A DNA stretch of 64,000 nucleotides from an uncultured Chlorobiota bacterium (GCA_900696645.1 CAADGV010000043.1:66848-130847), one strand, 5' to 3'; counted from the stretch's first letter, positions 20,519 to 62,894 are shown. The notes: generated by a model from the sequence alone, not told the origin. Numbers and translations: made by a program.

Positions 20519-20535
20519 GGGTCTGCTCGCAATTG

Positions 20536-20886: not shown

Positions 20887-20894
20887 TATAGATC

Positions 20895-21311: not shown

Positions 21312-21318
21312 AGGGGGG

Positions 21319-42882: not shown

Positions 42883-43093
42883 CCCGATCCATTCCTTTCG
42901 AGCGAACGTAAGTCAGAACAAGGCGATACGCCCCATATAAGAACACTACCGCGCCAAAGATGACGCGGTAGTGTTCGGGAACATGCTTAGGAACAAGAAA
43001 ACCCAAGATTGCCATCATCCCTGCAATCATTACCGCGCCCGATACCGCATACACAACAAATCTGAGCACAGAAACGATATTCATCACTCCCAT
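42872..43093 (-). CDS. Small two-TM membrane protein
   Basis: 73 aa with two hydrophobic helices; position conserved within the operon. Confidence 0.4.
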   Translation of the reverse strand: MGVMNIVSVLRFVVYAVSGAVMIAGMMAILGFLVPKHVPEHYRVIFGAVVFLYGAYRLVLTYVRSKGMDRDEK

Positions 43094-43127
43094 TCTCTGT
43101 CCGGGCTATATTACTTCCGATCCGCCA

Positions 43128-43898: not shown

Positions 43899-43923
43899 TC
43901 CTTCTTAAAGATATGGTGAGTTG

Positions 43924-44421
43924 TTATTTAACTTCCGAAATAAGTTTCAGATCCTGCTCCGTCATACGGGCAATACTGAACCGTTGCATTTCCGCCTGAT
44001 TCAGTTCGTCCATTACATCCACCATCACTTCATACTTCGCCTTCGTATCTATCTTAACAAGTGTAACCAGTTTAGGGTTCGCCTGGACGCGTTGGCGGAT
44101 ATCCGCCCGCAGCTTCGAGAATTCCATTTTCTGCGGGGCATCCATGCCAATGTTCCAGAACACTTCGCCTTTTTCGTTCAGGCGGAGAGTCAGGAGATTG
44201 GACTCGGCAATTTCCACTTTGACGTTCTCATCCGGCGGTAGATTGATCTCCATCGTTTGCGGACGGGCCATCGTCGTCGTGAGCATGAAGAACGTCAGCA
44301 ACAGAAACGCAATATCAACGAGCGGCGTCATATCGATACGAATACCGATGCGCTTGGACTTCTTGCGTTTCTTCTTTCCATGACTTCTAGGTTGTGGGGC
44401 ATCCCCACCAAGACCTGCCAT
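43924..44421 (-). CDS. exbD: Biopolymer transport protein ExbD/TolR
   Basis: IDMTPLVDIAFLLLTFFMLTT. Confidence 0.85.
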   Translation of the reverse strand: MAGLGGDAPQPRSHGKKKRKKSKRIGIRIDMTPLVDIAFLLLTFFMLTTTMARPQTMEINLPPDENVKVEIAESNLLTLRLNEKGEVFWNIGMDAPQKMEFSKLRADIRQRVQANPKLVTLVKIDTKAKYEVMVDVMDELNQAEMQRFSIARMTEQDLKLISEVK

Positions 44422-44435
44422 AGCGTTAACCTCCT

Positions 44436-44900
44436 CTAATTCGCTTCAAGGTTTGTGACGAGATTGAATCTCGTAATCTTTGTTTTTTGCAGAATGTCCA
44501 TCACGTCTTGCGCGATGCCAAACTCGGCATTCCTGTCTCCTTTGATCACCGTGCGGAGCTTGGGATTCATAGTGCGCGCTTGAATCAGATAGTCGCCAAG
44601 CTTTTCACGCGGTATCTCAACACCGGCTCTCAACTCGTTTTCCTTGCCGAACAGTCGTCCGCGCAGGCGCTGCGAATCGACATCCATGAAGATTCGCCCG
44701 TCTTTCGCAAGGCTGAGCGTCAGCACGTCCGATTCAGGCAACTTGAACACCGAGTTTGACGCAGGCAGGTCAATCGACACCTCCTCCGCCGGCTTGAACT
44801 GGGTTGTTAACATAAAGAATGTCAACAAGAGAAACCCGATGTCAACAAGCGGCGTCATATCGAGCAGAATGCCGTGACGTTTCGGTTTTATCTTTGCCAT
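44436..44900 (-). CDS. exbD: Biopolymer transport protein ExbD/TolR (second copy)
   Basis: LDMTPLVDIGFLLLTFFMLTT. Confidence 0.85.
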   Translation of the reverse strand: MAKIKPKRHGILLDMTPLVDIGFLLLTFFMLTTQFKPAEEVSIDLPASNSVFKLPESDVLTLSLAKDGRIFMDVDSQRLRGRLFGKENELRAGVEIPREKLGDYLIQARTMNPKLRTVIKGDRNAEFGIAQDVMDILQKTKITRFNLVTNLEAN

Positions 44901-44934
44901 ATGATTCTCTCCTTGTGTTTTGTTTGTCGAGAGA

Positions 44935-45711
44935 TCACTTGGTTTTCGCGCCTAAGATTTCAGCAACATTGTAGCTTGCTTCATCGACCATGTACATGAA
45001 GTTGTCCACGCGCGTAACAAAAAAGTTGTAGAAAATGATACCGATGATAGCCGCAAAAAGTCCGAGGGCTGTATTGATAAGCGCTTCGGAAATACCGATT
45101 GAAAGCTGGATAGCATCGGGCGCACCCGCTTGTGCAAGAGCCTGGAATGCACGAATCATACCGATCGTTGTTCCGAGAAGCCCGAACATCGTCGCTGTCG
45201 ATGCAATCGTGGAAAGTGCAATCAGGTTTCGCTCAAGAAGCGGAGTCTCAAGGGCCGACGCTTCTTCGATGGCACGTTTCGTCTCCGCCATCTTCTTCTC
45301 GCCATCCATTGAGTTGTCGACGAGAACTTCCTTGTATCGTTCGAGTCCCGATCGTATAATATTGGCCGCCGATCCGCGCTGCGCATCGCATTCCTTGATG
45401 GCCTCATCAATCTTTCCACCAATCAACGCCGCCTGTACTTTCTTGAGAAACGCGGGAAGCGAACCTTTGCCCTGGGCCTTGCGAAGAGAAAACGTTCTTT
45501 CAAAAATGATTGTCACATTCATCAGTGTCAGCGTAATCAGAATCGGTACAACATAGCCGCCCGTGTACACTGTTCCGAGCAAATTCAGGGGTTGCTGCCG
45601 TGTGGCACCGTCCTTGAAGTTCTCAGGATTGCCGAGCACGAACAAATAGATGCCAAACGCTACCGCAAGCGTCACAATGATCACGACAGTGAGAAACACA
45701 GATTGTTTCAT
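44935..45711 (-). CDS. exbB: MotA/TolQ/ExbB proton-channel protein
   Basis: Three TM helices; ALSTIASTATMFGLLGTTIGMIRAFQ...ISEALINTALGLFAAI. Confidence 0.85.
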   Translation of the reverse strand: MKQSVFLTVVIIVTLAVAFGIYLFVLGNPENFKDGATRQQPLNLLGTVYTGGYVVPILITLTLMNVTIIFERTFSLRKAQGKGSLPAFLKKVQAALIGGKIDEAIKECDAQRGSAANIIRSGLERYKEVLVDNSMDGEKKMAETKRAIEEASALETPLLERNLIALSTIASTATMFGLLGTTIGMIRAFQALAQAGAPDAIQLSIGISEALINTALGLFAAIIGIIFYNFFVTRVDNFMYMVDEASYNVAEILGAKTK

Positions 45712-45778
45712 CGATCAAACTCCTCTTTTTGTTTATGTAATTAGTAGATGATAGGTAAATGAATTGCCATGAGATTTG

Positions 45779-46123
45779 TTACGACAGCGCTTTGACAGCG
45801 TCGTCGCGGGTTTCCGCAACATCAAATACCATCGTCAGCTTCGTAATCACGAAGATGTTGTTGATATTGTTGTTGATGCCGCAGAGCTTTACGACCCCAT
45901 TGTTGCGGGAATAGGTGGTATGCGCCTGAACGAGAACTCCGATGGCTGTACTGTTCAGGTATGTCACTTTGCTTAAATCGATGATGAGCTTCTTGTTGCC
46001 CTGCTCCACGAAATCCGCCACTGCACTCCTCAACTCGTCTGTCTCTTCGCCGCCAACGAGTGAGCCTTTCACTTCGATAACGCCGATTTTGCCGCTTTGA
46101 AGCGTGGTTGTTTTGACTGACAT
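45779..46123 (-). CDS. STAS-domain protein (stand-alone anti-sigma antagonist-like)
   Basis: LIIDLSKVTYLNSTAIGVLVQA...; start at MSVKTT (cat at 46121-46123). Confidence 0.65.
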   Translation of the reverse strand: MSVKTTTLQSGKIGVIEVKGSLVGGEETDELRSAVADFVEQGNKKLIIDLSKVTYLNSTAIGVLVQAHTTYSRNNGVVKLCGINNNINNIFVITKLTMVFDVAETRDDAVKALS

Positions 46124-46415
46124 AGTGTCTCCAAAAAACTGTGCGATACTGTTGGTGATTTGAATGTAGTTCACAAGGAAAACAAAGGAAGTCTCACAAA
46201 CGCCAAGTTACTTACCCGGAAAACAACCGCAGGAAGTAGCCAAACACTCCTGTACGCATTGGGTGAAGAAAACCCGGGCATGGATGGTAGGTGCCCTTCA
46301 GGCTGAGTGTTTCAGAACCCAGATTTATATATGTGTGACGCAAAACAAATGCCATTGTTCAATGCGACCAGTTGGCGTGAATTTACGGGTTTTGGGCTGC
46401 GGGAAAAACCAACGT

Positions 46416-46567: not shown

Positions 46568-47887
46568 TCACAACTGAAATTTCTTTCTTTTTCGCCAAAG
46601 TGTTGCAGGATCGATATTCAGTATAGCAGCGGCTTCTTCGAGGTCATGTGCAATGCGTAGCACTTTCATAATGTGCTGGCGTTCCATCTCTTCGAGGGAC
46701 ATAAGTCCCGACGACGACGCATCCAACTCACGAAATTGATCTGGAAGATGTTCAAGGCGGATATCGCCCTCACGCGCAAGCAACACAGCCCTCTCTATAA
46801 CATTCTCCAACTCCCGGACATTGCCTTTCCATGAATACGATTTGAGAGCGAGAAATGCCTCCTGCGAAATCTCGCCGCCGCTTCCCGATTTTCTCAAGAA
46901 ATGCGTCACTAACAGCGGGATATCTTCCATCCGTTCGCGCAACGGCGGAAGTTTGAGCGTCACGGCATTCAGTCTGTAAAAAAGGTCCTCACGGAACGTT
47001 CCGGACTTCACCGCGTGTTCGAGATTCTTGTTCGTCGCTGCAATGACGCGGACATCAACCTTCAGGGTTTCGGTTTCACCGACGCGTTCAAACTCCTTGT
47101 TTTGCAAGAACCGGAGCAGCTTCACTTGTGTTTGCAGCGACACCTCGCCGATTTCATCAAGAAACACTGTGCCTCCATCGGCGGCCTCAAATCTTCCCTC
47201 CCGATCCTTTGTTGCGCCTGTGAATGCTCCCTTCACATGTCCGAACAACTCGCTTTCCAACAACTGCTCGGCAAGCGCGGCACAATTGACCACGACAAAA
47301 GGCTTCTCACGGCGCTGACTGTTGTCATGGATGAAGTGTGCGAGAAGTTCCTTTCCTGTTCCGCTTTCCCCTTCAATCAGTACGGCGATATTTCCCGGCG
47401 CAACCTGCAAGCCAAGATCGAGCATCGAGCGCATTCTCTCGCTGCGCGTCACAATCTCCCCGGACGACTTCGCACGTTTCAACTCTTCTTTCAGTTCAAT
47501 GATCTCGCGTCGCAAGTTGTGATGATCGAGAACTTTCCGGGCAAACAGCGTCAGTTCCGAAAACTCGAACGGCTTTTGCAGGTAGTCGTAGGCCCCAAGC
47601 TTGATTGCTTCCACGGCAGAGTCAATGCTCCCGTGAGCTGTCATCAATACAACGGTTGTGCCGGGTTGAAGTTTTCTTGTCTCACGCAACAATTCCATAC
47701 CATCTATCGGAGACATTTTGAGATCAAAGAATGCAATATCGAATGACTGCTCCCGGATCGCATCAAGAGCCTTCAGCGGCTCCGAGAAAGCGGTTACGTC
47801 AAAGCCGACTGCCTCGAGCCCGAGGGTTACAGTTTTGAGAATATTGCGTTCATCATCAACAAGAATGACGGAGGATTTCGCTGGCAT
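46568..47887 (-). CDS. Sigma-54-dependent response regulator (NtrC family: REC-AAA+-Fis)
   Basis: VILVDDERNIL...FDLKMSPIDG; AAA+ GESGTGKELLAHFIHD, GAFTGA, ESELFGH; C-terminal HTH AAAILNIDPATLWRKRKK. Confidence 0.9.
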   Translation of the reverse strand: MPAKSSVILVDDERNILKTVTLGLEAVGFDVTAFSEPLKALDAIREQSFDIAFFDLKMSPIDGMELLRETRKLQPGTTVVLMTAHGSIDSAVEAIKLGAYDYLQKPFEFSELTLFARKVLDHHNLRREIIELKEELKRAKSSGEIVTRSERMRSMLDLGLQVAPGNIAVLIEGESGTGKELLAHFIHDNSQRREKPFVVVNCAALAEQLLESELFGHVKGAFTGATKDREGRFEAADGGTVFLDEIGEVSLQTQVKLLRFLQNKEFERVGETETLKVDVRVIAATNKNLEHAVKSGTFREDLFYRLNAVTLKLPPLRERMEDIPLLVTHFLRKSGSGGEISQEAFLALKSYSWKGNVRELENVIERAVLLAREGDIRLEHLPDQFRELDASSSGLMSLEEMERQHIMKVLRIAHDLEEAAAILNIDPATLWRKRKKFQL

Positions 47888-47890
47888 GAA

Positions 47891-49783
47891 TCAGCCGTGA
47901 TGTGTTGTGGAGTGAGTGTGATCAAGCGGAAGCAGGAATGAAAACATGCTGCCTTTCCCGGCTTCACTTCGTACCCAAATCTTGCCACTGTACGCCTCGA
48001 CAATCTCTTTTGCAATTGCCAGTCCCAACCCCACGCTTCCGGGCGTTGAAGCAGAGGCGCTTTTTACCTGCACAAACTTGTCAAAGATCGTGTCGATGTG
48101 TTCGCTCGCAATCCCGACACCCGTATCCTGTACTTCGAACAGCATCCCGCGCGGTTCTTCACGCACGCGTACGGTAACGCAGCCCCCCGCATTCGTGTAC
48201 TTCAGGGCATTGGTGACAAGGTTCGTGATCACCCACGACAGTTGCTGCTCGTCTGCAACAAGCCGTCGTAGCTCCGCCGGAATCTCGGTCACCAGCCGGA
48301 CATTCTTTTCCTGAAATTGAATATGAAGCGGCTTGATGGTTGACTCAATCAATGACCGAACATTGAGTTCTTCATTCTTGAATTGGAGTCTGCCCGACTC
48401 AAGTTTCGACAATTGCAGCAATTCCCGCGCAAGTTTGGTCAATCGCTGGCTGTCTTCTTTCGTGGAGAGAATCAGTTCCTTTTGGCGATCGTTCAACGGA
48501 CCGAGCAGTTCCTGATTCAGAAGATCGACACTCATATTAATCGACGTTAGCGGTGTGCGGAACTCATGCGAGAGTGTTGCAATGAAATCCGATTTCATGC
48601 GATCCAGTTCCTTGAACTGCGTTACATCCTGCAGAACCGTCAGCGTGCCGTACAAATGTCCTTCGTTGTCAAAGATATTCGTCACTTTGGGGCGGAAGTA
48701 GAGATGCTTCTCCGACCGCTCGAATTGCAAATAATTGACCTGAGTGCCGCTGCCTTCACCGTCCGATTCCCCGTCATCCCTCGCTGATTGCGACGCTGAG
48801 CGAATGAGCGACATGATGCGTTCATCGCGTATTACCGAGCCAACAGGTTTGCCGATTGCATCAACATCAAGATATCCGAACAACTCCGCCACAACATTGT
48901 TGATGTGAATGATGTTCATGTCCGCGTCGGTGACAATGATGCCGTCGGAGATGCTGTCGACAATCGCTTCCGACTTGCGCTTCTCGGAAATGATCTTGTC
49001 GATATTCATTTGTTCGTACCGGCGCAGGCGTTCGGTCATCTTGTTGAATTCACGGCTCAACGAGCCGATTTCATCGTCTGACAGGACATCAATTTTCAGA
49101 TCAAGATGCCCGGCCCCAATTTCCCTGACACGTTGTGTAAGGGCTTCCGCCGGTTTCACCAGCACGGTCGTAAGCCAAATTGTTCCCGCAATTCCCAACG
49201 CAAGTGTGACAATCGAGGCAATCATCATTCCGTACGCCGATTGGTTTGCGATGGAATGTGTCTTGCTTTCAAGATTGTACATTCCTGTCTGGTTGTATTC
49301 GAACAACTGGAAACACAGTGAACGCAACTCTTCGGAAACCGGGCGGACACTCTCGTAGTAGTAATTCTTTGCCTGTGTGAACGCCCCCTGCATAATCATC
49401 CCGCGCATCGAGTCGGTGACGGAAATGTACGCGTTGCGGGCATTATGCAACGAATCGCGAAGCGAGCCGAGCTGGCCTTCCGGCATTCTCCGCAGCGCCT
49501 GCTCATACCAATAGAAGAACATCTCCTTATTTTCGGCGAACGTTCCGCTGACAGTTGCATCTTCGCCCTGACTTGCAACGAGCAACGCGTTATCCTGCCC
49601 TTCCAGTGATTTCACCATACTTTCCGCTGCCAGAACGCTGAGGTAATTCTCCCTCAGAATAGTCGCTACCGTGGTTCCGAGCGCGTAGAAGTTGTACACA
49701 GACCAGAAGCCCGCGGCAAGGCTCAGCGTTACCAGCAACGCAAACGTCCAGATAATCTTCGTGCGTATGGTTCTCACCATCAT
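47891..49783 (-). CDS. Sensor histidine kinase (periplasmic sensor - HAMP - PAS - HisKA - HATPase)
   Basis: Two TM segments flank a 150-aa periplasmic domain; HAMP; PAS (IVTDADMNIIHINN); H-box ATLSHEFRTPL; N/G boxes TNALKY, DTGVGI, GSVGLGLAIAKEI. Confidence 0.9.
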   Translation of the reverse strand: MMVRTIRTKIIWTFALLVTLSLAAGFWSVYNFYALGTTVATILRENYLSVLAAESMVKSLEGQDNALLVASQGEDATVSGTFAENKEMFFYWYEQALRRMPEGQLGSLRDSLHNARNAYISVTDSMRGMIMQGAFTQAKNYYYESVRPVSEELRSLCFQLFEYNQTGMYNLESKTHSIANQSAYGMMIASIVTLALGIAGTIWLTTVLVKPAEALTQRVREIGAGHLDLKIDVLSDDEIGSLSREFNKMTERLRRYEQMNIDKIISEKRKSEAIVDSISDGIIVTDADMNIIHINNVVAELFGYLDVDAIGKPVGSVIRDERIMSLIRSASQSARDDGESDGEGSGTQVNYLQFERSEKHLYFRPKVTNIFDNEGHLYGTLTVLQDVTQFKELDRMKSDFIATLSHEFRTPLTSINMSVDLLNQELLGPLNDRQKELILSTKEDSQRLTKLARELLQLSKLESGRLQFKNEELNVRSLIESTIKPLHIQFQEKNVRLVTEIPAELRRLVADEQQLSWVITNLVTNALKYTNAGGCVTVRVREEPRGMLFEVQDTGVGIASEHIDTIFDKFVQVKSASASTPGSVGLGLAIAKEIVEAYSGKIWVRSEAGKGSMFSFLLPLDHTHSTTHHG

Positions 49784-49974: not shown

Positions 49975-50661
49975 CTAGAATTGTTCCTCATCGTGGAACA
50001 AAACCACCGAACGGACGCCGCTTACGGATTTCAGTTCGCGCAGCAATTCCGCGGCACCCGCGTCGTTTTTCGGTTTGACGTAATATGAAACCTCCAATTC
50101 CCCGTTTTCTCCTACCGATCTCACATTCATCAGGGAGTTTTGCCGCGAGTATGCAAGCAACGCTGCCAGATAGGGTGGCTCCTTGCCGTTCAGATCGCCG
50201 TGCAACGGCTGATATGTAAACTGTACGATGAATTGTTTTCGGGGAGATGAGAGGATGTTGAAATTCACGAGCAGGTAATAGCCTGTGCCGAGAATGATCG
50301 TCCCCGCAAAGGCGGCGGCGGATAATCCCACGCCTGCCGTCATTCCGATGGCGAGGGCGAGAAAAATATGCACGATATCCATCACTTCTTTGACCGCCGT
50401 CCGGAAACGGATAATCGACATTGCGCCGACAAGCCCGAATGCGCGGGCAAGACTGTCGCCGATCACCATAATCACAACGGCAGTAATCATCGCGAGAAGA
50501 ACCAGCGAGTTGAGAAAGCTCGCCGAATACCCGGGCCCGCGATACGCCGCGCGGTAAAACGCGATGTGAATAAGCCCGCACAAGCTTGCCACAATCACGT
50601 TTGCAACGAAGTCGCCAAGCGTAAGCGGTGAAACTGTAAGACCTTCGAAATATTGCAGCAT
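49975..50661 (-). CDS. DUF4956-family membrane protein
   Basis: 3-4 N-terminal TM helices, then a soluble C-terminal domain; start at MLQYFEG (cat at 50659-50661) overlaps the VTC stop by 1 nt. Confidence 0.6.
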   Translation of the reverse strand: MLQYFEGLTVSPLTLGDFVANVIVASLCGLIHIAFYRAAYRGPGYSASFLNSLVLLAMITAVVIMVIGDSLARAFGLVGAMSIIRFRTAVKEVMDIVHIFLALAIGMTAGVGLSAAAFAGTIILGTGYYLLVNFNILSSPRKQFIVQFTYQPLHGDLNGKEPPYLAALLAYSRQNSLMNVRSVGENGELEVSYYVKPKNDAGAAELLRELKSVSGVRSVVLFHDEEQF

Positions 50662-51437
50662 CAGGCAGCCACCTCCGTTCGTCCGCACGCAAGCCCGACA
50701 AGGTCGGCGCATCCCAACTTTCCGGCAACCCCGGACGCTGTAACACACGAGCCATACTTCGACACACTCACGCGTGTCAAACCGTGCTTTTTGACAATTG
50801 CCCGAAGCCACGGAGCAAACCCGCCACCGAACTTTATCTCCATGATGAATGATGAGGCCGCAAGATGCGTCAATCCGTTTTCATTGTAGAGGTCGTTCAG
50901 CGAAGGCACACCCTGAAACCGTAAATGCTTGTCAAACGTGATTCGCAGATTCGGATCAAATTGTCCCTGAAACGCCTCCCTCTCATATGTTACGAGAACC
51001 ACCGGCCTCATTGCCGACCGGATGTAATGAAAAAGAAATCGCCGGGCGTTGTCGAGAGCAAGCGTGCGATTGGGACCGACGAGAATGTACTCTTCGGGAT
51101 TTCGCGTATGGAGAAATGCCGGCAGGTCGGTTGCGGACAATGCAGAGCGGCACTTCATACCCCTCCGCTCGATTTTGGTTTTGATTTCGAGAAATGCCCT
51201 TGCCCCTTCAGCGGCAGCGTCATAGGAACGGATGCGGAGCTTCTTCCGATTTTTTATCCCTTCCAATTTCTCGCGGTACGCGGCAAGTCGGGACGTATCG
51301 AAATAAATGCTTCTGACGGTGTATTGATGATCCTTGCGGCGCATCGTATAAACGTCGAGCGTGGTGTACGGCATAACGTCCTGACGCAGGGCATCAAGCC
51401 GTTCCATCGGAACGACGTACTTGTATTCAAATCGCAT
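50661..51437 (-). CDS. VTC-domain (CYTH-like triphosphate tunnel; polyphosphate-polymerase-domain) protein
   Basis: N-terminal MRFEYKYVVP (ExExK CYTH signature); basic tunnel residues; about 258 aa. Confidence 0.65.
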   Translation of the reverse strand: MRFEYKYVVPMERLDALRQDVMPYTTLDVYTMRRKDHQYTVRSIYFDTSRLAAYREKLEGIKNRKKLRIRSYDAAAEGARAFLEIKTKIERRGMKCRSALSATDLPAFLHTRNPEEYILVGPNRTLALDNARRFLFHYIRSAMRPVVLVTYEREAFQGQFDPNLRITFDKHLRFQGVPSLNDLYNENGLTHLAASSFIMEIKFGGGFAPWLRAIVKKHGLTRVSVSKYGSCVTASGVAGKLGCADLVGLACGRTEVAA

Positions 51438-51469
51438 GTCTGACCCTTGTTACGTATGCGAAACGCCTG

Positions 51470-52552
51470 TTATCTCACAAGCGATTGGAGTTTTCGTTTG
51501 ACGAATTCGAACGGCGAAAGCGATTCACATTCAATCGTGCAGCGCGCAAGCAATCCGTTCAACACTTCCTCCGGCATGTCGACGAGTTGCGCCGTTGCAA
51601 GCACAACCTGCTGCCCGTTCAGCGAATGGATTGTCTTGTCGACTTTGCTCACCGCCGCCCGCGGAATATTGCCGACCTCGCTCGCGTACAATCGTACCTG
51701 TTGCTCCGGCAGAACGCTGGTCCGCTCATGCACAGAAACCGGCATCACCACAACGTAGCCCGTTGTGTCGGAAACAACCAGCAGTGTGTCTCCTTTGCCG
51801 ACTTGTGTGACAATACCCGAGATCGGAGCGATGAGCCTGTATTCTTTTTCCTGCCGCTCCAACACGTGGATTTCGCTTTGCAGGGATTTGATCTGCGCCC
51901 GGACGAAATCGGCCTGCTCTTTTTTTGCTCCGGTTGTAGCGCTTCGAAGTCTTGCCTCTGCAATTGATACCGCAATTGCCGACGTTGCCGCCTGGCGTTG
52001 GGCAAATTCATACTCCTGTTCCGACACTAACCCCCTGTCAAATAAGAGTTTCTGGCGGGCAAGGACAGAGTTGTACTCCTCTGCCTGGCGCTTTGCATGT
52101 TCGACCGACTGGACGGCTTCTTCTACGATAGATTGCTTCTCTCCTGTCACCGCAACCGCAAGTGCGGCGGTGGCGTTTTGCAGTTCTCCCCTCAATCGTT
52201 CAAGCTCGCGTGCAACTTCGCTGGAACGCGCAATGCCGACAGTATCTCCGGCTATAATGGTAGATCCGCCGGCAATTTTTGCATCAATCGAAAAACTCAT
52301 CGCGTCGCCGCGACTGAATTGTGCGAGCGAGTAGTGTCTCGTAATTCCGCTTGCCCGGTCTGCAATGAAGGTCACTATTCCGCCATCCCTGTTCAGGGCA
52401 ACGATCCATTCACTTGTGCAGAGAATCTTTCCCGTTGTCGTGATGGTGTACGGAACAGAGATCGGCAAAACAAACACGAGCGGAACCAGCACAGCGGCAG
52501 CCACTCCGAATGCCCATTTGCGGCGATGCGTATCAAATTCCAATCCCCTCAT
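51470..52552 (-). CDS. HlyD-like membrane-fusion / periplasmic adaptor protein
   Basis: N-terminal TM; two lipoyl/beta-barrel halves flanking a long Ala/Glu/Gln-rich coiled coil; no cognate ABC/RND pump in the window; 4-nt overlap with the CotH gene. Confidence 0.5.
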
Positions 52553-55398
52553 TTCATCAGTACCATGCGACGTGTTTGCGTAAAGCCGTCGGCAGAAATT
52601 CTATACAAATAGATTCCGCTGGAGAGGGGCGATGCGTCGAATGTGACGGTGTGAGTTCCGGCATTCCGCTGTCCGTCAACAAGCGTGGCAACCCGCTGGC
52701 CAATAAGATTGTACACATCCAGCTTGACGTTGCTTTCCTTCGGCAACCCGAACGAAATCGTGGTGGATGGATTGAACGGATTAGGATAATTCTGCGCCAG
52801 CGAGAAAGTCGTCGGTATGCTTGATGTGTGTTTCACGTTCGTCACAAGGGAAACATCCGTTCCCGTCAATACAATCTCGGTAGTCCCGCCGGAGGGGTTC
52901 ACCGTATTCGCGCCGCTCGGCCACACGCCATCGGCGTCCGTTGCCGTTGCCAGGATTGCTCCCGTCGCACGCGAGCGCCGCTCAAACCGGCGGATGCCGT
53001 TCGGCAGCGTGTTCGGAACAACCATGCCGAATGCCCCGTTGAGGCCGTCCACGTTTCCGGCGTAGAATGCAGCGTAATTGTTAGCAAGTGTGTTTGCCGT
53101 TCCATCATGCTCGATGAATGTTCCTGAAACCGGCCTTCCGCTTCCGGCAGTGTTGTCGTAGGCAAAGACAAAATCCTTTGCAGCGGCAGAAGACGATCCC
53201 CGAAGTCCGGTACCCGAAGTATCGGCCGGCGCCGAGTCGAGTCTCAGTACACGGACAGAATCGGGCGTGGTCAGGCGAACGGCAACCGATGTGCCTGTGC
53301 CTCCATCGTTCAGCGCGATTCTCATAAACACATGGTTCCCCGGTGCAAACCGCGCATTTCCTGTCGGCTCTGAGACGAACCAGCCTTCGAACATTCCGGT
53401 TGCATCACTCGTGAAGGTTCCGTATGCACCCTCCACCGAAAGACTCGGCCCGGTTGTTCTTGTAAAATCGCCCGATGCCGGAACGAAGATACAGTTCCCC
53501 GCACCGCTTGTCGTAGCCCCGTCTGCGGAAGTCACCATCTGATTGAAGTATCGGTACGTCGCGTTCTGCAGAAGTCCGGAAATTCTTACTCTGTAAGCAA
53601 ACGGAATGCGGTTTGAATTCGTCCCATTATTTCCCTGAATCACTTGCGGCACAATGAGTGTTATCAGAACGGGATCAATAATAATCGAGTTGCCGTTATC
53701 GGTGCCGAATGTCGGCCGCGCCTGCACGAACGGGCCCGTGCCGTTCGGAATGCGCGCCATCGAGCGGTTGCCCACCTGCGGACCGAACGTGACGGAATCG
53801 AGAATGCTCACGTTGACGTTCGAAAAGATGATCTGCTCACCGCTTGCCGACAACGCAAAATTGGCATGAAGTCCAACCTGTCCGCTGTCGTTATCAGCCC
53901 AGACAATCAGGTAGCCGTTCGGCGCAATGATCGTGTTAGCAGGAAATTGCCACTTCGTCGGCAATGTCGGGTCGTCCGAAAGATACATGCCGCCGAGATT
54001 CAGCGGATTTGATGTTGTATTGTAGAACTCTATCCAATCGTCAAACTGGCCAGCAGGATCGGGAATCGAATCGTTCTGCGCCATGAATTCGTTGATCACC
54101 ACATCACCCGGATTCACCGCAAGCAAGCAGGAGACGCCAAGCGTCGTCAGTTGCGACTGTACGCTCGCTTGCCTGAGATTGATGAATGATTTCAGTCCCG
54201 GTTTGCGCGTCCCGCCCCCGCCGCTGGCGTTGATGTCGCTTACCAGATTGGTTTCAAACTGCGTGTTCGTGTACATCTTCCGCGGATCGGCATACACGTG
54301 CGGTCGGATAGCGCTCGCGACCGAGTCGATCAGAGGAAAAAGTCTTGCCGACGAGAAATAATTCGTAAACAACAGGCATAGCTGCTGCAAATACTCGGCG
54401 CGCAGTGTTGGCGTATTCAAAAACTTGCCGATAAGGGGACGGTTGGTTGTGCTGCTCACATAGGTAATGCTCATGCTCTCAAGATTCGACACGCCGCCCG
54501 TGTATGAACCGAAGCTGAGCCCCAAATCCCAGGGAATCCACTCCATTTTTCCTGTTGTAGGATGAAAATAGAAGTAGAAATTCCTTCCGCTGTTCAGATA
54601 CGCATCGAGGTTTGCAAACAGATTATCGACTGCAACTGCTCTGTACAGCGCGTTCAGATTCACGACGTTCGGCAATGCCGTTGCCATGTTGGCGTTGTTG
54701 TTGAGTGTATCGAGCAGCCTGACGAGATTCGTCCACGCGGTTGTCGATTCTTCCGTTTTCATTTCATAGCGCGAGTAGTACAGGCTTGGAGTCGACCCGT
54801 ACCAGCGGAAATCAGAAATAACCCCCGAGCCGAACGCGTCAACGGCCTTGAAGAGATCGCCCCCGTCGTTTGCATAACGTGAATTCAGAAACCGCTTGTC
54901 AACATGCTCGACCATGGCGTAGAATCCCCACAACGTGTCGTTGAAGAACACCCGCGCATAGTTTACTCGCGGCGCCGGAACGCCCGCATCTCTGCAGAAA
55001 TCCGAGTGCATCTTCTCGCGCATGAACGTGGGATCGCCCCAGCAATTGTTCAGGTGAATCCCCTTCACGCCGTCCCAACGGGTATTACTTCTGAACTCAT
55101 CGAGGCTCAGCCGGATCGATTTTTTGTTGTTGGGATGACTGTAGGAGGAATTTCCCTTGAGCCTGACGCCGATACTATCGTATTCGACACCGTTGATCAC
55201 GGCGTTTGCGGCAATGTACTGCTCGTTTCCTTGATTATAATAGATCGTGAGAGAATCCCAGTAGCGTTGCTGCGGAAACCGGAGGTTGATGGTGTGAATC
55301 TGCGTGCCCGCAAAAATACTGTCGCCCGGATTTTGCGCATTAGCTGCAATGGGCACTCCTGCAAGCAGAATGCCAAGAAGCAGGCTGTAACGTTTCAT
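52549..55398 (-). CDS. CotH-family (atypical kinase-like) protein with lamin-tail domain and T9SS C-terminal sorting domain
   Basis: Signal peptide; CotH core (IRLSLDEF...[59 protein letters not shown]); lamin-tail domain VINEFMAQN...[23 protein letters not shown]...NGYLIVWAD; C-terminal [19 protein letters not shown]... Confidence 0.75.
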
Positions 55399-55422: not shown

Positions 55423-55800
55423 TTACTCGTTGCGTCGCCGCGGTCGATCCTCGAACCTGTTGCGGCGCTCTTTCTGAAATTCTTCGAACTTCTTCCTCTG
55501 TTCCTTCGTCAACAGGCCGGTGATCTTCTCGTCGGCTTCACGGTTCTTCTTCATTATCGTTTCACGAAAGGCGCCGCGATTGCCGCCGGAGGATTCGAAC
55601 ATTTCTTCCATCTCTTGCCGGAGTTGTTCATAGATTTTCCTGACTTGGGCTGTTTGCTTCTCGTTCAGGTTCAGTTCCTTTTTCAACTCGGCGGTACGCT
55701 CGTCGGGCGACATGCGTCTCGGTTGGGCTGAACTGCCGCTGCATAACAACACGAAGCAGGCCGGCATGAGGAGTATCAAGGCAGTTGATCGAAGTTTCAT
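55423..55800 (-). CDS. Periplasmic Spy/CpxP-like (LTxxQ-motif) protein
   Basis: Signal peptide; LNLNEKQTAQVRKI and LTKEQRKKFEEF LTxxQ-like motifs; helical, highly charged. Confidence 0.55.
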   Translation of the reverse strand: MKLRSTALILLMPACFVLLCSGSSAQPRRMSPDERTAELKKELNLNEKQTAQVRKIYEQLRQEMEEMFESSGGNRGAFRETIMKKNREADEKITGLLTKEQRKKFEEFQKERRNRFEDRPRRRNE

Positions 55801-57348: not shown

Positions 57349-57687
57349 ATGAAGGACACTGACAAGCCGCTCATTTGGCTGCATGGCGAGGTTAAGACGC
57401 CGCCATTTTCCGGAGCGGGAAGGATTGAAGCAGGATACCTGTTGCGCCGATTACAGACGGGCGAAAAGCTGGCCTTGCCTCATTCGCGACCGATGCCTTC
57501 GATCGGTTCACGGTGTCACGAGCTTCGCATCAACGACGAAAATAGAACCTGGCGTATTGTGTACCGCCTCGAGGAGGATGCCATCCTCATTCTGGATGTA
57601 TTCGAAAAGAAAGTGCAGAGAACACCCAAGAAAGTCATAGAAAATTGCAAACGCCGAATCAGACTTTATGATTTAGAAGTAGGATGA
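57349..57687 (+). CDS. higB: Type II toxin, HigB-like (RelE/ParE superfamily, Gp49-like)
   Basis: 112 aa; toxin gene comes first with a 4-nt overlap to an XRE antitoxin, the HigBA order; ...ELRINDENRTWRIVYRL...ILILDVFEKK. Confidence 0.7.
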   Translation: MKDTDKPLIWLHGEVKTPPFSGAGRIEAGYLLRRLQTGEKLALPHSRPMPSIGSRCHELRINDENRTWRIVYRLEEDAILILDVFEKKVQRTPKKVIENCKRRIRLYDLEVG

Positions 57688-57998
57688 CCATGAATACTAC
57701 AAAACGAAAACGCCTTGAAGCTAAAGGATGGAAAGTCGGCAGTACTGCTGACTTCCTCGATCTCTCACCCGAAGAAGCCGCCTACGTGGAAGTAAAACTC
57801 GCCTTGAGCAAGCGCCTTCAGGCGGCGCGACGGGGAAAGAACCTTTCGCAGGAACAGTTGGCCCAACTTTTGAAATCCAGCCAATCCCGCGTGGCAAAGA
57901 TGGAGGCGGGAGACCCGACGGTGTCACTTGACCTTCTCGTTCGCTCACTCTTTGCCCTTGGTACATCCCGGAAAACCCTCGCACGGATATTGGGATAA
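57684..57998 (+). CDS. higA: HigA-like XRE-family HTH antitoxin
   Basis: LSQEQLAQLLKSSQSRVAKMEAG helix-turn-helix. Confidence 0.7.
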   Translation: MTMNTTKRKRLEAKGWKVGSTADFLDLSPEEAAYVEVKLALSKRLQAARRGKNLSQEQLAQLLKSSQSRVAKMEAGDPTVSLDLLVRSLFALGTSRKTLARILG

Positions 57999-58167: not shown

Positions 58168-61100
58168 TTATTTCATCAACAACATCTTGCGTACCTGAAT
58201 GAACGCGGGCGAGCCACTTGTCGGCGTCGCTTCAATGCGCATCAGGTACACGCCCGTTGCCACGCGGGCATCCCATCGTACATCATAGAACCCGGCGGGC
58301 TGCACGGCGGCGACAAGCTGCTCAACTTCCTGCCCCAGTATGTTGAACACCTTCAGCGTCACCTTCGATTCAGCAGGCAACGCATACCGGATTGTGGTCG
58401 AAGGGTTGAAGGGATTCGGGTAGTTCTGTTCGAGCGCGAATGTCGTCGGCAGAGCCGCTACACCTTCAATGCTTGTCACGATATCAAGTCTCACCGGCAC
58501 GAACATGGGGGCGCCGGTGTTTCCTGTCAGCGTGAGCCGTGCGCGGTGGGTTCCCTGCGTCATCACGCCGGGATGAACCTGCACTTTCACGCTCATGCTG
58601 TCGGACGGGGCGAGCACGCCCTGCGTAACATCCGTTGAAAGCCACGGCACGGCGTCCCGCGTCAACAGAATGGCGAGATTGTTGTGCATATACGCCGCGC
58701 TGTTCACAACCTGCAACGCAATACTCCCTCCTGCATTCTCAATTCCAATAGTCGCAGAGGTAAGCGTTTGCTGCATGTTCTGATATTGATAAAGAACATC
58801 GCCCGACGGCTTGAGGATAATCTGGAACGTATAGAGTCCGGGCTCAGAAGTGCCGTAATGCGGCACGTTGGTGTACTGAACGATGAATCTGTTGTTGGCG
58901 ACATCGTGATAATAGTGCACGGTTCCGCTTGTACTCAGATCAAGATCGTCCCACCACGGATACAGCGCATTGTTCGGCTCTGCAGTCGAGGGAATGGCGC
59001 CGTTCAGGTACGCCGCCGAAGTCGAGGCAACGTCGAACCCGAGCCAGCCGTTTGTCACGACCTTCAGTGACGAGTAAGAGGTGCCGTAGAACGGGAATGC
59101 AAACGGCATCGATATTGTCACATACCCGTCGTCGGCACTGGGTGACCAACCTGTAATCTGTGTGCCGACGGTCGAGATATCCACCCAGTTGAATGTCGGA
59201 CCGCCCGGCTCGTCGCTGTCAATCCAGCGATAGCCGTATGCGTCAGGGCCGCCGCCACCTTTTATTGCAGGAGGATTGACGGCTTGCGCAACGCCCTTCG
59301 GGAGTTCGATAGTCGCCTGCTGTTCCATTGAGCGCAGTATGGAAGGCGACGTACCGACCAGCGATTCTTCTATTGTAAACCGCAACGTGTCGGTACCTGC
59401 GTTCTTTACTTTCATCATCTGAAATGTCGTATCGGCTGTGGGCTGTCGCGTGAACGCGAAAGAATCGGGCTGAACAACCATGAGCGCAATTCCACCGTGT
59501 CCGATCAGCGCAATGGCTGGAGAACTGCCGGCGTTCGAGATGAAACGTAGCGTGTCGTACAGCGTCCCCACCACAAGCGGCTTGAACTGCACGGTCAATC
59601 GTACGGTATCCTGCGGCCCGAGCGAGAAGCTGACCGGCGTTACGGAGAACCGCGCGTTAGTATGCGTAATGTTCGTGACGTTCAGCGTGCCTGTGCCGAG
59701 ATTTTGTACACGCACAAACTGCGTCGCCGAGTCGTTCAGTTGAACCGCCCCGAAATCCAATGAGGACGGCGTCGCGGAAATCAATGCGCCACCCGGGCGG
59801 GTCATCAAGAATTCAACTATGTTTTCCGTGAGTTTCTTTGCCGTTGTCGTGTCGGTAATGGCGGCAACGGAGAATGTCGTGAACACAATTTGTCCGACTG
59901 TGGGATCGGGTAGAGGATTGTACACAATAACCCCCGCCGTGTCGGGGCCTTGCGCTGCATATGTTGACCATCCGGCGATTTTCTTCGCATGCACGTCGCC
60001 GGGCTGCAACCTCATAGCATCCCTGTGTCCTATACCGCTGGTCGGGAACGGAACGGGACTTGAAATAACGTGAGGCGTTGTGAACACCGGATGCGATGGC
60101 ACAGTCACCGCTAAATTGGAACTGCTGACATCGCTGATCCAGTTGCTGTCGCGCAACACTTGACGGCGGAACGGCGGATCGAGGTCGGTTGTTGTGCCGC
60201 TCTTGCGGAAGACGTATCCAACTTCCCCGCCTTCGACCCAGATTTTTCCTCCGGATTGGCTGCGGCCCACCAACGCCGCCCGTTTGGCTGCATCTCCAAA
60301 AATGCCGCTCGTTTTGCTTCCTGCAGACCACACAACAACATCATAGTTCGCATAGCCTGTCGGATCGTGGGCGGCAAATGTTGCCGTATCCACCACAAAT
60401 CCAACTTCCGTCAGCGTACGGGCGATGAGACGCGAGCTGACGCCTTTCTGCGCCGCGGGACGTTCATCCATCCCTTTGTCGGATACAGCTTTTTCCTTCG
60501 TTGTCACGTCATCATCTACCACAAGAATAACTCCGCGTGCAGAGATGATGGCAAAACGATGGAAGCCTGTCGGCGGATTCGTCGCAAGATTTCCCGCAAC
60601 GGAACGATCACGTGCAACCACCTTGTATACAATAGTGTCGCCAACAACAACCTGATTCGTATCGAGCGGGAACGTCGCCTGATAATTGTCTCCCGTCGTA
60701 GGCACAAGCCCGAACGACCCGCTCAGGGAGCCGCGAAGGCGCATATAATCCACCCATACGGAATCAACGCCGAGGTTATCCGTTACTGTTGCGCGTACCG
60801 TTGCCGGCCAGCGCAACCTCGCCTGATCGCGCAGCGGCGTGTGTGTAATAACCGGAGGAATCACATCAGGTCCGGCAAGGAAACTGTGGAAGCTCCCCGG
60901 CGCTCCGGTCGGATGAGTTGCCGCTCCGCCACTGCTATCTTTCGCCGAGATATAGTACCGGTACGTTGCCTGGATTCCGTTTCCGGGAATTTGCGCCTGA
61001 TAGACGTTCGGCGTTCCCGTCAGTGTCATCTGCACGCTGTCGGTGAAAGTTCCCGTTCTCGTCCAGAACACTTTCAGGCTCGACGGAATGAGGGGTGATG

Positions 61101-62856: not shown

Positions 62857-62894
62857 TCCACGTATTCCTTTTGACTGATTGATAGAATTGATTC

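What the first reader, a model, noticed from the sequence alone, without database searches (positions are those of the whole stretch)
49975..55398. Tight four-gene operon: T9SS-exported CotH kinase-like protein (with lamin-tail domain) - HlyD-like adaptor - VTC/CYTH triphosphate-tunnel protein - DUF4956 membrane protein
All four genes are on the minus strand with translational coupling: a 4-nt overlap at 52549-52552, a 33-nt gap, then a 1-nt overlap at 50661. CotH, VTC and DUF4956 families are repeatedly annotated as neighbours in bacterial genomes, but no function or mechanism is established for the bacterial trio. Here the CotH member (bacterial CotH is an atypical protein kinase in Bacillus spore coats) has a signal peptide, a lamin-tail domain and a T9SS sorting domain, so it should end up on the cell surface. 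The VTC protein (ExExK motif EYKY; homolog of the eukaryotic polyP polymerase catalytic domain) has no signal peptide. DUF4956 is polytopic. An orphan HlyD-like periplasmic adaptor sits between them. The topology suggests an envelope-spanning module coupling cytoplasmic triphosphate-tunnel chemistry (polyP synthesis or NTP processing) to an extracellular kinase-like enzyme. This is the strongest candidate for an uncharacterised system in the window.
Basis: partly seen in the sequence, partly recalled or inferred. Interest (0 to 1): 0.8.

Follow-up and report, generated by a model that had tools for sequence, protein, structure and literature searches.

The report
Envelope-spanning polyphosphate synthase-exporter with surface kinase
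This operon joins a polyphosphate-polymerase-like enzyme, a small inner-membrane protein and a genuine efflux-pump adaptor (a trio conserved across many two-membrane bacteria) with a secreted CotH kinase, which suggests, but does not prove, an undescribed machine that makes polyphosphate and pushes it out to the cell surface.

Summary
Four minus-strand genes are tightly coupled (ATGA overlap, 32-nt gap, TGATG overlap). They encode a T9SS-exported CotH-LTD protein, a HlyD-like protein, a VTC/TTM protein and a DUF4956 membrane protein. A fifth gene, for a periplasmic LTXXQ protein, ends 24 nt upstream.

New here:
- **Adaptor is real.** The "orphan HlyD-like" protein is a true periplasmic adaptor (AF2 pLDDT 85; Foldseek MacA/EmrA E~1e-13). 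It has an N-terminal membrane anchor, ~60-residue hairpin arms and the TolC-docking RLS tip motif.
- **Adaptor is core, not a local addition.** In related FCB-group loci it sits directly upstream of VTC in 77/82, and DUF4956 sits directly downstream in 81/83. CotH lies nearby in only 18/44.
- **No adaptor in Firmicutes.** Two Firmicute plasmid loci have CotH-VTC-DUF4956 without it.
- **Active sites are intact.** The Vtc4 residues (K200, R264, R266, E426, S457/K458) and the CotH aspartates (D228, D251) are conserved.
- **Phosphate genes recur nearby:** PPK2, PiT+PhoU-like and CYTH.

Best model (inferred): a synthase-coupled trans-envelope polyphosphate exporter that supplies a surface CotH kinase. 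I found no published mechanism; Gram-positive Pel studies report only partial mutant phenotypes. I rate it a new variant of known kinds, of high interest, and untested biochemically.

The parts
55423..55800 (-). LTXXQ/Spy-CpxP-like small periplasmic protein (125 aa, signal peptide). Probable first gene of the operon; its stop is 24 nt before the CotH start.
   Evidence: Pfam LTXXQ E 4e-8; sequence read. An LTXXQ-family gene occurs in 7 of 87 related loci, next to the module in e.g. L001, L008, L046 and L084. A Metal_resist protein lies upstream in L004.
52549..55398 (-). Secreted CotH-family kinase-like protein, 949 aa. Layout: signal peptide, CotH domain, lamin-tail domain, about 325 aa unassigned, T9SS type-A C-terminal sorting domain.
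   Evidence: The catalytic Asp equivalents D265 and D291 are conserved in 46/47 neighbouring CotH domains.
54250..55167 (-). CotH kinase domain (aa 78-383).
   Evidence: Pfam CotH E 2.5e-56. B. cereus CotH 5JD9 E 1.2e-19. The NLD265 and PWD291 motifs align to B. subtilis D228 and D251.
53785..54114 (-). Lamin-tail domain (aa 429-538).
   Evidence: Pfam LTD E 8.3e-16. LTD accompanies CotH in most related loci.
52789..53766 (-). Unassigned region of the CotH protein (aa 545-870).
   Evidence: No Pfam or PDB sequence match. A homologous region was found in only 8 related loci.
52561..52788 (-). T9SS type-A C-terminal sorting domain (aa 871-946).
   Evidence: Por_Secre_tail E 8.4e-11; TIGR04183 at 48.4 bits against a cut-off of 23.
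51470..52552 (-). Periplasmic adaptor / membrane-fusion protein (360 aa). N-terminal TM helix aa 8-28, beta domains, and a long alpha-hairpin (aa 111-237).
   Evidence: AF2 pLDDT 85. Foldseek hits MacA E 1e-13 and EmrA E 9e-12, followed by AcrA and MexA. It lies directly upstream of VTC in 77/82 loci. 559 50%-identity clusters match at E<=1e-30.
52022..52057 (-). Hairpin-tip RLS motif of the adaptor (R166-x3-L170-x6-S177).
   Evidence: Across the window protein plus 74 VTC-adjacent orthologs (75 sequences, median 31% identity): R 74/75, L 71/75, S 59/75. That this motif docks TolC is from my own knowledge of the AcrA/MacA literature.
50661..51437 (-). Cytoplasmic VTC-domain triphosphate-tunnel enzyme (258 aa), a Vtc4-like putative polyphosphate polymerase.
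   Evidence: Pfam VTC E 5.9e-42. A profile of 35 homologs hits Vtc4 3G3Q at E 4.9e-14. R2, K6, R68, R70, E200, K202, S226 and K227 are invariant and align to Vtc4 R196, K200, R264, R266, E426, K428, S457 and K458.
49975..50661 (-). DUF4956 inner-membrane protein (228 aa). Five predicted helices (aa 15-133) plus a C-terminal ACT-like domain (aa 144-223). Distant MgtC relative.
46568..49783 (-). HAMP-PAS histidine kinase (47891-49783) and sigma-54-dependent response regulator (46568-47887), 191 nt downstream on the same strand. A possible regulator; the link is weak.
   Evidence: Pfam. The same pair follows the module in L001, and an HK plus sigma-54 regulator follows it in L090. A sigma-54 regulator occurs in 12 of 87 loci. 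No sigma-54 promoter match lies upstream of the operon.

Best explanation
The locus encodes a diderm-bacterial counterpart of the eukaryotic VTC polyphosphate synthase/translocase, combined with the periplasmic part of a tripartite efflux pump. All steps below are inferred; none is shown.

1. The cytoplasmic VTC-domain tunnel enzyme polymerises phosphate from ATP at the inner face of the membrane.
2. It is coupled to the DUF4956 protein (five helices plus a cytoplasmic ACT-like domain). DUF4956 would take the place of the Vtc1/3/4 transmembrane channel. Its invariant basic motif (R73, R85, R87, K91) is a candidate entry path or pore lining for the polyanion.
3. A membrane-anchored MacA/EmrA-like adaptor with long hairpin arms and an RLS tip would bridge the periplasm to a TolC-type outer-membrane channel encoded elsewhere. 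The nascent polyphosphate would then leave the cell, pulled by the outside-positive membrane potential.
4. At the surface, the T9SS-exported CotH-LTD protein, whose kinase active site is intact, would bind or use the exported polyphosphate. The most attractive version is use as a phosphoryl donor for surface proteins or glycans, because ATP is absent outside the cell.
5. The LTXXQ protein may act as a periplasmic chaperone or stress buffer for the system.
For: **Shown here**
- Family assignments and topology.
- Vtc4 catalytic residues are conserved and invariant in 35 homologs. Vtc4 R264A/R266A/E426N inactivates the yeast enzyme (PMC9911596).
- Adaptor-VTC-DUF4956 adjacency in 77/82 and 81/83 loci across Ignavibacteriales, Bacteroidales, KSB1, Calditrichia, Zixibacteria, Latescibacterota and others.
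- The adaptor fold matches MacA/EmrA, and its RLS tip is conserved at a median 31% identity.
- The two Firmicute plasmid loci I examined, and the Gram-positive Pel-linked loci described in the literature, have CotH-VTC-DUF4956 with no adaptor reported.
- Phosphate genes recur next to the module: PPK2 in 6 loci, PHO4 in 4, PhoU_div in 3, CYTH in 4.
- CotH catalytic aspartates are conserved in 46/47 neighbouring CotH domains, and CotH is a T9SS cargo.

**From established knowledge**
- Yeast VTC couples polyP synthesis to translocation through a basic channel (PMC9911596).
Against: - There are no biochemical data for any bacterial VTC-domain protein.
- DUF4956 is unrelated to the Vtc channel domain, its TM part has no solved relative, and its nearest relatives (MgtC) are regulators, not channels.
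- No TolC-family gene was found among the window ORFs I scanned or among the recurrent neighbour clusters I annotated.
- The bacterial enzymes carry E4 where Vtc4 has T198. This is closer to hydrolytic TTMs, so hydrolase rather than polymerase chemistry is not excluded.
- CotH is missing from about 60% of fully flanked loci, so the core must work without it.
- No CotH enzyme is known to use polyP.
- Co-transcription is inferred only from gene spacing.
Confidence: 0.45

Rival explanations
1. Intracellular or membrane-associated polyphosphate metabolism only. VTC would make (or degrade) polyP in the cytoplasm, with DUF4956 as an MgtC-like membrane anchor or phosphate-homeostasis regulator. The adaptor and CotH would serve a different, merely co-regulated envelope process.
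For: DUF4956 weakly resembles MgtC, which is known as a regulator (as summarised in PMC12345266). PPK2, PiT and PhoU-like neighbours fit cytoplasmic phosphate economy. No outer-membrane factor gene was found in the locus.
Against: The adaptor gene directly precedes VTC in 77/82 loci across phyla, often overlapping it or only a few bases away (e.g. L004, L006, L090), and no other transporter gene is consistently present. It is absent from the two Firmicute loci examined. Adaptors have no known role without an inner-membrane partner.
Confidence: 0.2
2. The tunnel enzyme is an NTP/triphosphate-hydrolysing energiser or signalling enzyme for export of another cargo through DUF4956, the adaptor and TolC. 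That cargo could be an exopolysaccharide or a small phosphorylated donor such as triphosphate or ATP. CotH would then modify that cargo or use that donor.
For: In Firmicutes the trio sits inside exopolysaccharide clusters (Pel loci; Pseudobutyrivibrio pNP95). Mutants of the CotH-like and DUF4956-like genes lower Pel-dependent aggregation. E4 is retained as in hydrolytic TTMs.
Against: The Vtc4-type basic tunnel residues are invariant. I know of no TTM that acts as a transport motor. The FCB loci lack adjacent polysaccharide synthases.
Confidence: 0.15
3. CotH here is not a kinase coupled to the module. It would be an independent surface adhesin or cargo (as in Mucorales CotH invasins) that merely clusters with other T9SS cargo genes.
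For: CotH is absent from 26 of 44 fully flanked loci. The module often sits among unrelated T9SS cargo such as GH9 and GH16 enzymes.
Against: When present, CotH directly flanks the core on the same strand, often in 2-5 copies. The same linkage holds in Firmicutes, which have no T9SS. The catalytic aspartates are conserved in 46/47.
Confidence: 0.15

Closest known systems
Eukaryotic VTC complex (Vtc4/Vtc3/Vtc1 polyphosphate polymerase-translocase; PDB 3G3Q, 7YTJ, 8I6V)
   Same: Same catalytic domain family (Pfam VTC), with K200, R264, R266, E426, S457 and K458 equivalents conserved. In both cases the enzyme is tied to a small polytopic membrane partner, which suggests synthesis coupled to membrane passage.
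   Different: There is no SPX sensor. There are no DUF202-type Vtc transmembrane domains; a separate DUF4956 (MgtC-like, 5 helices plus an ACT-like domain) takes their place. E4 stands where Vtc4 has T198. A periplasmic adaptor is added. The target compartment is the cell exterior, not a vacuole.
Tripartite efflux / type I secretion assemblies with membrane-anchored adaptors (MacAB-TolC, EmrAB-TolC, HlyBD-TolC)
   Same: The adaptor fold, the N-terminal TM anchor, the long alpha-hairpin and the conserved RLS tip motif. As judged from the domain budget, there seems to be no membrane-proximal domain, as in EmrA and HlyD.
   Different: The genetically linked inner-membrane partner is not an ABC, MFS, RND or PET transporter. 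It is DUF4956 plus a soluble tunnel enzyme. No outer-membrane factor is encoded nearby, and the cargo would be an inorganic polymer.
Gram-positive cotH / polyP-polymerase / DUF4956 accessory genes of pel loci (Whitfield et al., bioRxiv 10.1101/768473; S. intermedius SIR_1592-1594, PMC12345266)
   Same: The same three families in conserved synteny. CotH is secreted. DUF4956 is described there as an MgtC-like TM domain plus an ACT domain.
   Different: The window shows no pel or other exopolysaccharide genes in the flanks I scanned. A periplasmic adaptor is added. CotH carries an LTD and a T9SS tail instead of FN3. The 2025 paper states that the synteny was not found outside Pel loci; this window and about 80 FCB loci show that it exists elsewhere.
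Bacillus CotH spore-coat kinase (PDB 5JD9) and Fam20-type secretory kinases
   Same: The CotH domain, with both catalytic aspartates. Like Fam20, it acts (if active) outside the cytoplasm.
   Different: It is exported by the T9SS to the cell surface, fused to an LTD and an unknown 325-aa region. There is no CotB/CotG-like substrate gene. The phosphoryl donor outside the cell is unknown.
Synthase-dependent exopolymer secretion (cellulose Bcs, alginate, PNAG, Pel)
   Same: The same logic: polymerisation at the cytoplasmic face coupled directly to trans-envelope extrusion.
   Different: The polymer would be inorganic polyphosphate. The periplasmic and outer-membrane parts would be adaptor/TolC-type rather than TPR-porin.

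Membership tests
Vtc4-type polyphosphate polymerase (VTC/TTM domain) | Pfam VTC (PF09359) match above the gathering score | tested here: met
   144 bits against a cut-off of 23, E 5.9e-42.
Vtc4-type polyphosphate polymerase (VTC/TTM domain) | Catalytic tunnel residues K200, R264, R266 and E426 (plus S457/K458) | tested here: met
   K6, R68, R70, E200 and S226/K227 are invariant in 35 homologs and align to Vtc4. The inactivating Vtc4 mutant is described in PMC9911596. That K200 and K458 are catalytic is from my recollection of Hothorn et al. 2009.
Vtc4-type polyphosphate polymerase (VTC/TTM domain) | Eight-stranded beta-barrel tunnel fold | not tested
The fold is inferred only from sequence homology to 3G3Q.
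Vtc4-type polyphosphate polymerase (VTC/TTM domain) | ATP-dependent polyP polymerase activity | not testable with these tools
   Needs an enzyme assay.
Eukaryotic VTC complex | SPX sensor domain and Vtc1-type (DUF202) transmembrane channel subunits | tested here: not met
   The VTC protein is a 258-aa single domain. The neighbour is DUF4956, not DUF202. No SPX hit.
Periplasmic adaptor / membrane-fusion protein of tripartite pumps | Lipoyl and beta-barrel domains plus an alpha-hairpin fold | tested here: met
   AF2 pLDDT 85. Foldseek MacA E 1e-13, EmrA E 9e-12, then AcrA and MexA.
Periplasmic adaptor / membrane-fusion protein of tripartite pumps | Inner-membrane anchoring (TM helix or lipobox) | tested here: met
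   Predicted helix aa 8-28, preceded by R2, R10, R11 and K12.
Periplasmic adaptor / membrane-fusion protein of tripartite pumps | Hairpin-tip RLS motif for docking to the outer-membrane factor | tested here: met
   R166, L170 and S177, conserved 74/75, 71/75 and 59/75.
Periplasmic adaptor / membrane-fusion protein of tripartite pumps | Adjacent canonical ABC, RND, MFS or PET inner-membrane transporter | tested here: not met
   The only membrane protein in the operon is DUF4956. The same holds in the related loci.
Periplasmic adaptor / membrane-fusion protein of tripartite pumps | A TolC-family outer-membrane factor is available | tested here: inconclusive
   None among the window ORFs I scanned or the annotated neighbour clusters. 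It may be encoded elsewhere, as is common.
CotH atypical protein kinase | CotH domain with the catalytic Asp (B. subtilis D228) and the metal-binding Asp (D251) | tested here: met
   Pfam E 2.5e-56. D265 and D291 align and are conserved in 46/47. The mutant data are in PMC7821199.
CotH atypical protein kinase | Ser/Thr kinase activity with ATP | not testable with these tools
   Needs an assay. The donor available outside the cell is unknown.
T9SS cargo (type A CTD) | Sec signal peptide plus a TIGR04183 / Por_Secre_tail C-terminal domain | tested here: met
MgtC/SapB family | Pfam MgtC TM-domain match above threshold | tested here: inconclusive
   The window protein gets only NF007431 E 6.7e-4 at 19 bits against a cut-off of 214. 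19 of 34 orthologs hit PF02308 below the gathering score.
MgtC/SapB family | C-terminal cytoplasmic ACT-like domain | tested here: met
Pel-locus accessory module | Contiguity with pelDEA(DA)FG genes | tested here: not met
   The flanking genes are LTXXQ, a 2-oxoacid_dh-like gene, the HK, the sigma-54 regulator, and STAS/ExbBD/TonB genes. No pel genes appear in the related FCB loci.

The most novel reading that the evidence does not exclude
This would be a previously unrecognised class of trans-envelope secretion machine: a synthase-dependent exporter for inorganic polyphosphate. Its parts would be a TTM polymerase, a DUF4956 channel, an adaptor and TolC. It is widespread in FCB-group bacteria. 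Its product would be the phosphoryl donor (or scaffold) for extracellular CotH kinases. That would explain both how bacteria put polyP on or outside the cell and how secreted bacterial kinases work without extracellular ATP.
Probability: 0.3. Interest if true: 0.9.

Novelty: new variant of a known kind. Interest (0 to 1): 0.72.

Why it matters
- **PolyP export.** Bacterial polyphosphate is attributed to PPK1 and PPK2, and how polyP reaches the cell surface or the medium is unknown. VTC-type synthesis coupled to translocation is treated as eukaryote-specific (e.g. PMC10657179).
- **A testable machine.** A conserved adaptor-VTC-DUF4956 core gives a concrete, testable candidate for polyP export. 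The adaptor subfamily alone has 559 clusters at E<=1e-30.
- **A new pump partner.** It would be a tripartite-pump adaptor working with a non-canonical inner-membrane partner.
- **Extracellular kinases.** It offers a testable answer to what extracellular CotH kinases use as substrate or donor.
- **Gram-positive Pel phenotypes.** It bears on the unexplained requirement for the cotH and DUF4956 genes in Pel-dependent aggregation in Gram-positive pathogens.

Tried and rejected
- **Sigma-54 promoter.** I searched for TGGCAC-N5-TTGCW upstream of the operon to link it to the adjacent NtrC-type regulator. Matches were at chance level (35 against 33 expected). The only hit near the operon, a 1-mismatch match, lies inside the CotH signal-peptide coding region. 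The sigma-70 and terminator scans were not informative for this lineage.
- **TolC, pel and polysaccharide genes.** I found none in the window ORFs I scanned.
- **Adaptor in Gram-positive loci.** I tested whether the gene upstream of VTC in Planococcus is an adaptor. It is not: it is a TIM-barrel protein, and hhalign gives probability 0.3%.
- **CotH residues 545-870.** No Pfam or PDB sequence match.
- **Primary CotH paper.** Nguyen et al. 2016 (PNAS) is not held, so I took the active-site mutants from PMC7821199.
- **Adaptor word-index search.** It returned only 18 relatives. The exhaustive profile search was needed to see the size of the family.
- **Rejected: chance adjacency.** The synteny statistics rule it out.
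- **Rejected: the HlyD-like gene as a lineage-specific insertion.** Same reason.

Full report
**1. Observation**

The four ORFs are real and lie where stated, all on the minus strand.

- **CotH protein (52549-55398, 949 aa).** Pfam gives CotH at E 2.5e-56, a lamin-tail domain at E 8e-16 and Por_Secre_tail at E 8e-11. NCBIfam TIGR04183 scores above its cut-off. The N-terminus reads as a signal peptide.
- **VTC protein (50661-51437, 258 aa).** PF09359 at E 5.9e-42.
- **DUF4956 protein (49975-50661, 228 aa from the ATG).** PF16316 at E 6e-13, with a faint MgtC/SapB hit.
- **HlyD-like protein (51470-52552, 360 aa).** Only sub-threshold sequence hits.

The junctions, read directly, are an ATGA overlap, a 32-nt gap and a TGATG overlap.

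A fifth gene was not mentioned in the finding. It encodes a signal-peptide-bearing LTXXQ (Spy/CpxP-like) protein at 55423-55800 and ends 24 nt upstream of CotH. A 191-nt gap separates DUF4956 from a HAMP-PAS histidine kinase and a sigma-54 response regulator on the same strand.

**2. What the HlyD-like protein is**

I predicted its structure from an 18-sequence alignment. The AlphaFold2 model has mean pLDDT 85. It shows:
- an N-terminal helix at aa 8-28, a membrane anchor preceded by basic residues;
- beta domains at aa 33-110 and 239-345;
- a hairpin with arms at aa 111-172 and 178-237.

Foldseek against the PDB returns MacA (E 1e-13), EmrA (E 9e-12), then AcrA, MexA and ZneB. It is therefore a genuine periplasmic adaptor. 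It resembles the membrane-anchored MacA/EmrA type, and there is little room in the sequence for a membrane-proximal domain.

The hairpin tip reads R166-x3-L170-x6-S177. From my knowledge of the AcrA/MacA literature, this is the RLS motif that docks adaptors to TolC-type channels. I aligned the window protein with 74 orthologs that sit next to VTC genes (75 sequences, median 31% identity to the window protein). R is kept in 74/75, L in 71/75 and S in 59/75. An exhaustive profile search finds 559 50%-identity clusters at E<=1e-30. The 150 best-scoring hits are nearly all 340-365 aa long. So this is a sizeable, distinct adaptor subfamily.

**3. Conservation of the gene set**

The nearest relatives are metagenomic. 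They include an 85%-identical locus in a "Bacteroidetes bacterium" MAG with the same LTXXQ-CotH-adaptor-VTC-DUF4956 order and the same downstream kinase and regulator. Pfam-annotated contigs from Ignavibacteriae, Zixibacteria, Calditrichaceae and KSB1 all show a roughly 350-aa gene, then VTC, then DUF4956.

I then scanned one genome per species and obtained 80 loci, mostly FCB-group MAGs. I annotated stop-to-stop ORFs with HMMs built from the window proteins:
- An adaptor homolog lies directly upstream of VTC on the same strand in 77 of 82 loci with enough flank.
- DUF4956 lies directly downstream in 81 of 83.
- A CotH-domain gene lies within the locus in only 18 of 44 loci that have at least 8 kb on both sides.
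- When CotH is present, it flanks the core on the same strand, usually carries an LTD and a T9SS tail, and often occurs in 2-5 copies.

One of the five loci that lack the adaptor is labelled Anaerolineae.

Two annotated Firmicute plasmids have different layouts. Pseudobutyrivibrio carries CotH-VTC-DUF4956 inside an exopolysaccharide cluster. Planococcus carries TIM-barrel-VTC-DUF4956-CotH. Neither has an adaptor. The conserved core in these diderm lineages is therefore adaptor-VTC-DUF4956, and the adaptor tracks the presence of a second membrane. These 80 loci are the closest relatives of the query VTC (39-53% identity), so the numbers describe this subfamily and not all bacterial VTC genes.

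**4. Other recurrent neighbours**

Clustering all ORFs and annotating representatives gave these counts out of 87 loci:

| Neighbour | Loci |
|---|---|
| PPK2 | 6 |
| PHO4/PiT phosphate transporter | 4 |
| PhoU_div | 3 |
| CYTH | 4 |
| SdiA-regulated / phytase-like propeller | 9 |
| Cthe_2159 | 4 |
| LTXXQ | 7 |
| Sigma-54 regulator | 12 |

The phosphate-related genes point to phosphate or polyP chemistry. The regulator link is weak, and no sigma-54 promoter is evident upstream of the operon.

**5. Catalytic competence**

*VTC.* A profile of 35 VTC homologs hits yeast Vtc4 (3G3Q) at E 4.9e-14. The alignments place the window residues as follows:

| Window residue | Vtc4 residue |
|---|---|
| R2 | R196 |
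| K6 | K200 |
| R68, R70 | R264, R266 |
| E200, K202 | E426, K428 |
| S226, K227 | S457, K458 |

All are invariant in the 35 homologs. Vtc4 R264A/R266A/E426N is the inactive mutant used for the cryo-EM structure (PMC9911596). One difference stands out: E4 is invariant where Vtc4 has T198. This is closer to the ExExK of hydrolytic tunnel enzymes, so hydrolase chemistry is not excluded.

*CotH.* The domain aligns to B. cereus CotH (5JD9) at E 1.2e-19. The 23-residue spacing of the two aspartates identifies D265 and D291 as equivalents of B. subtilis D228 and D251, whose mutation inactivates the kinase (PMC7821199). Both are conserved in 46 of 47 neighbouring CotH domains.

**6. DUF4956**

The family is more conserved than its partners, at about 50% identity across phyla. 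It has an invariant stretch, G68..LARAFGLVGAMSIIRFRT..K91..D95. By the positive-inside rule (my inference), the N-terminus faces out, the ACT-like domain is cytoplasmic, and R85, R87 and K91 sit at the cytoplasmic end of helix 3.

**7. Literature**

- The cotH / polyP-polymerase / DUF4956 trio has been noted as accessory genes of Gram-positive pel loci (bioRxiv 10.1101/768473).
- In S. intermedius, deleting the CotH-like (SIR_1594) or DUF4956-like (SIR_1592) gene reduces Pel-dependent aggregation. The authors give no mechanism, and they state that they did not find the synteny outside Pel loci (PMC12345266).
- C. perfringens NELoc-2 carries VTC, mis-annotated "tubulin" genes (226 and 222 aa, predicted cytoplasmic-membrane proteins that occupy the position DUF4956 has in other loci; I did not test their family) and CotH (PMC2879425).
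- Only five held papers mention DUF4956. None describes an adaptor or an export role.
- Reviews treat VTC as eukaryotic.

**8. Mechanism**

The best-supported reading is a synthase-coupled trans-envelope polyP exporter. VTC would polymerise phosphate at the membrane. DUF4956 would provide passage through the inner membrane. The adaptor would bridge to an unlinked TolC-type channel. A surface CotH-LTD protein would use or bind the product. Only the family memberships, the topology, the conserved residues and the synteny are shown. Polymerase activity, channel function, TolC docking and any CotH-polyP link are inferred. I put the exporter model at about 0.45 and the polyP-dependent CotH kinase idea at about 0.25-0.3.

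The rivals are:
- purely cytoplasmic polyP metabolism, with DUF4956 as an MgtC-like regulator;
- a tunnel enzyme acting as hydrolase or energiser for another cargo, or export of a small phosphodonor;
- CotH as an unrelated T9SS cargo.

**9. Verdict**

The locus is a new variant that combines two known kinds, a VTC-type polyP synthase/translocase and a tripartite-pump adaptor. The literature I could search describes no such combination. It is worth experimental follow-up.

Noticed in passing
window 57349-57998 (+): A HigB-like toxin (Pfam Gp49/DUF891, 112 aa) overlaps an HTH_3 antitoxin (104 aa) by 4 nt. This looks like a type II toxin-antitoxin pair, placed between the operon region and the giant protease gene.
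   Followed up: partly
window 58168-63015 (-): A 1615-aa T9SS cargo with an FTP propeptide motif, a weak M36 fungalysin match and HYDIN/ASH Ig-like domains. The same gene lies upstream of the module in the 85%-identity relative L001.
   Followed up: partly
window 40142-46174 (-): A STAS - ExbB - ExbD - ExbD - TonB - PstS-like (PBP_like_2) - TPR gene string lies directly downstream of the two-component system. The first part (STAS, ExbB, ExbD, ExbD) is also seen in L001 before that locus ends. A phosphate-binding-protein-like gene inside a TonB cluster may or may not relate to the phosphate theme.
   Followed up: no
window 52789-53766 (-), CotH aa 545-870: A region of about 325 aa between the LTD and the T9SS tail has no Pfam or PDB sequence match. 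It is shared by only 8 related loci.
   Followed up: partly
window 6323-9376 (-): Two adjacent squalene/phytoene-synthase-family genes plus a flavin amine-oxidase-family gene. The layout resembles the three-gene HpnCDE squalene route (that comparison is from my own knowledge).
   Followed up: no
window 18920-24489 (-): Two consecutive SpoIIE/PP2C-phosphatase-domain regulators. One has Reg_prop/Y_Y_Y sensor repeats. Together with the STAS protein at 45779-46174, this hints at partner-switching signalling.
   Followed up: no
L017, L024, L027, L035 (near PPK2) and the literature on B. thetaiotaomicron BT3498-99: A DUF481 outer-membrane-barrel-family gene sits next to PPK2, just downstream of the module, in 4 loci. 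In B. thetaiotaomicron a DUF4956 gene is paired with DUF2490 (PMC10434189). These might be alternative outer-membrane partners.
   Followed up: no
L057, L068, L084: A complete MacAB-like set (adaptor, ABC ATPase and FtsX-type permease) lies directly upstream of the CotH/adaptor-VTC-DUF4956 module in three Calditrichia loci. These loci therefore carry two adaptors side by side.
   Followed up: no
L090 10665-14909; window 46568-49783: A histidine kinase plus sigma-54 response regulator follows DUF4956 in the window, in L001 and in L090 (in L090 with a solute-binding protein). A sigma-54 regulator occurs in 12 of 87 loci. No sigma-54 promoter was found upstream of the window operon.
   Followed up: partly
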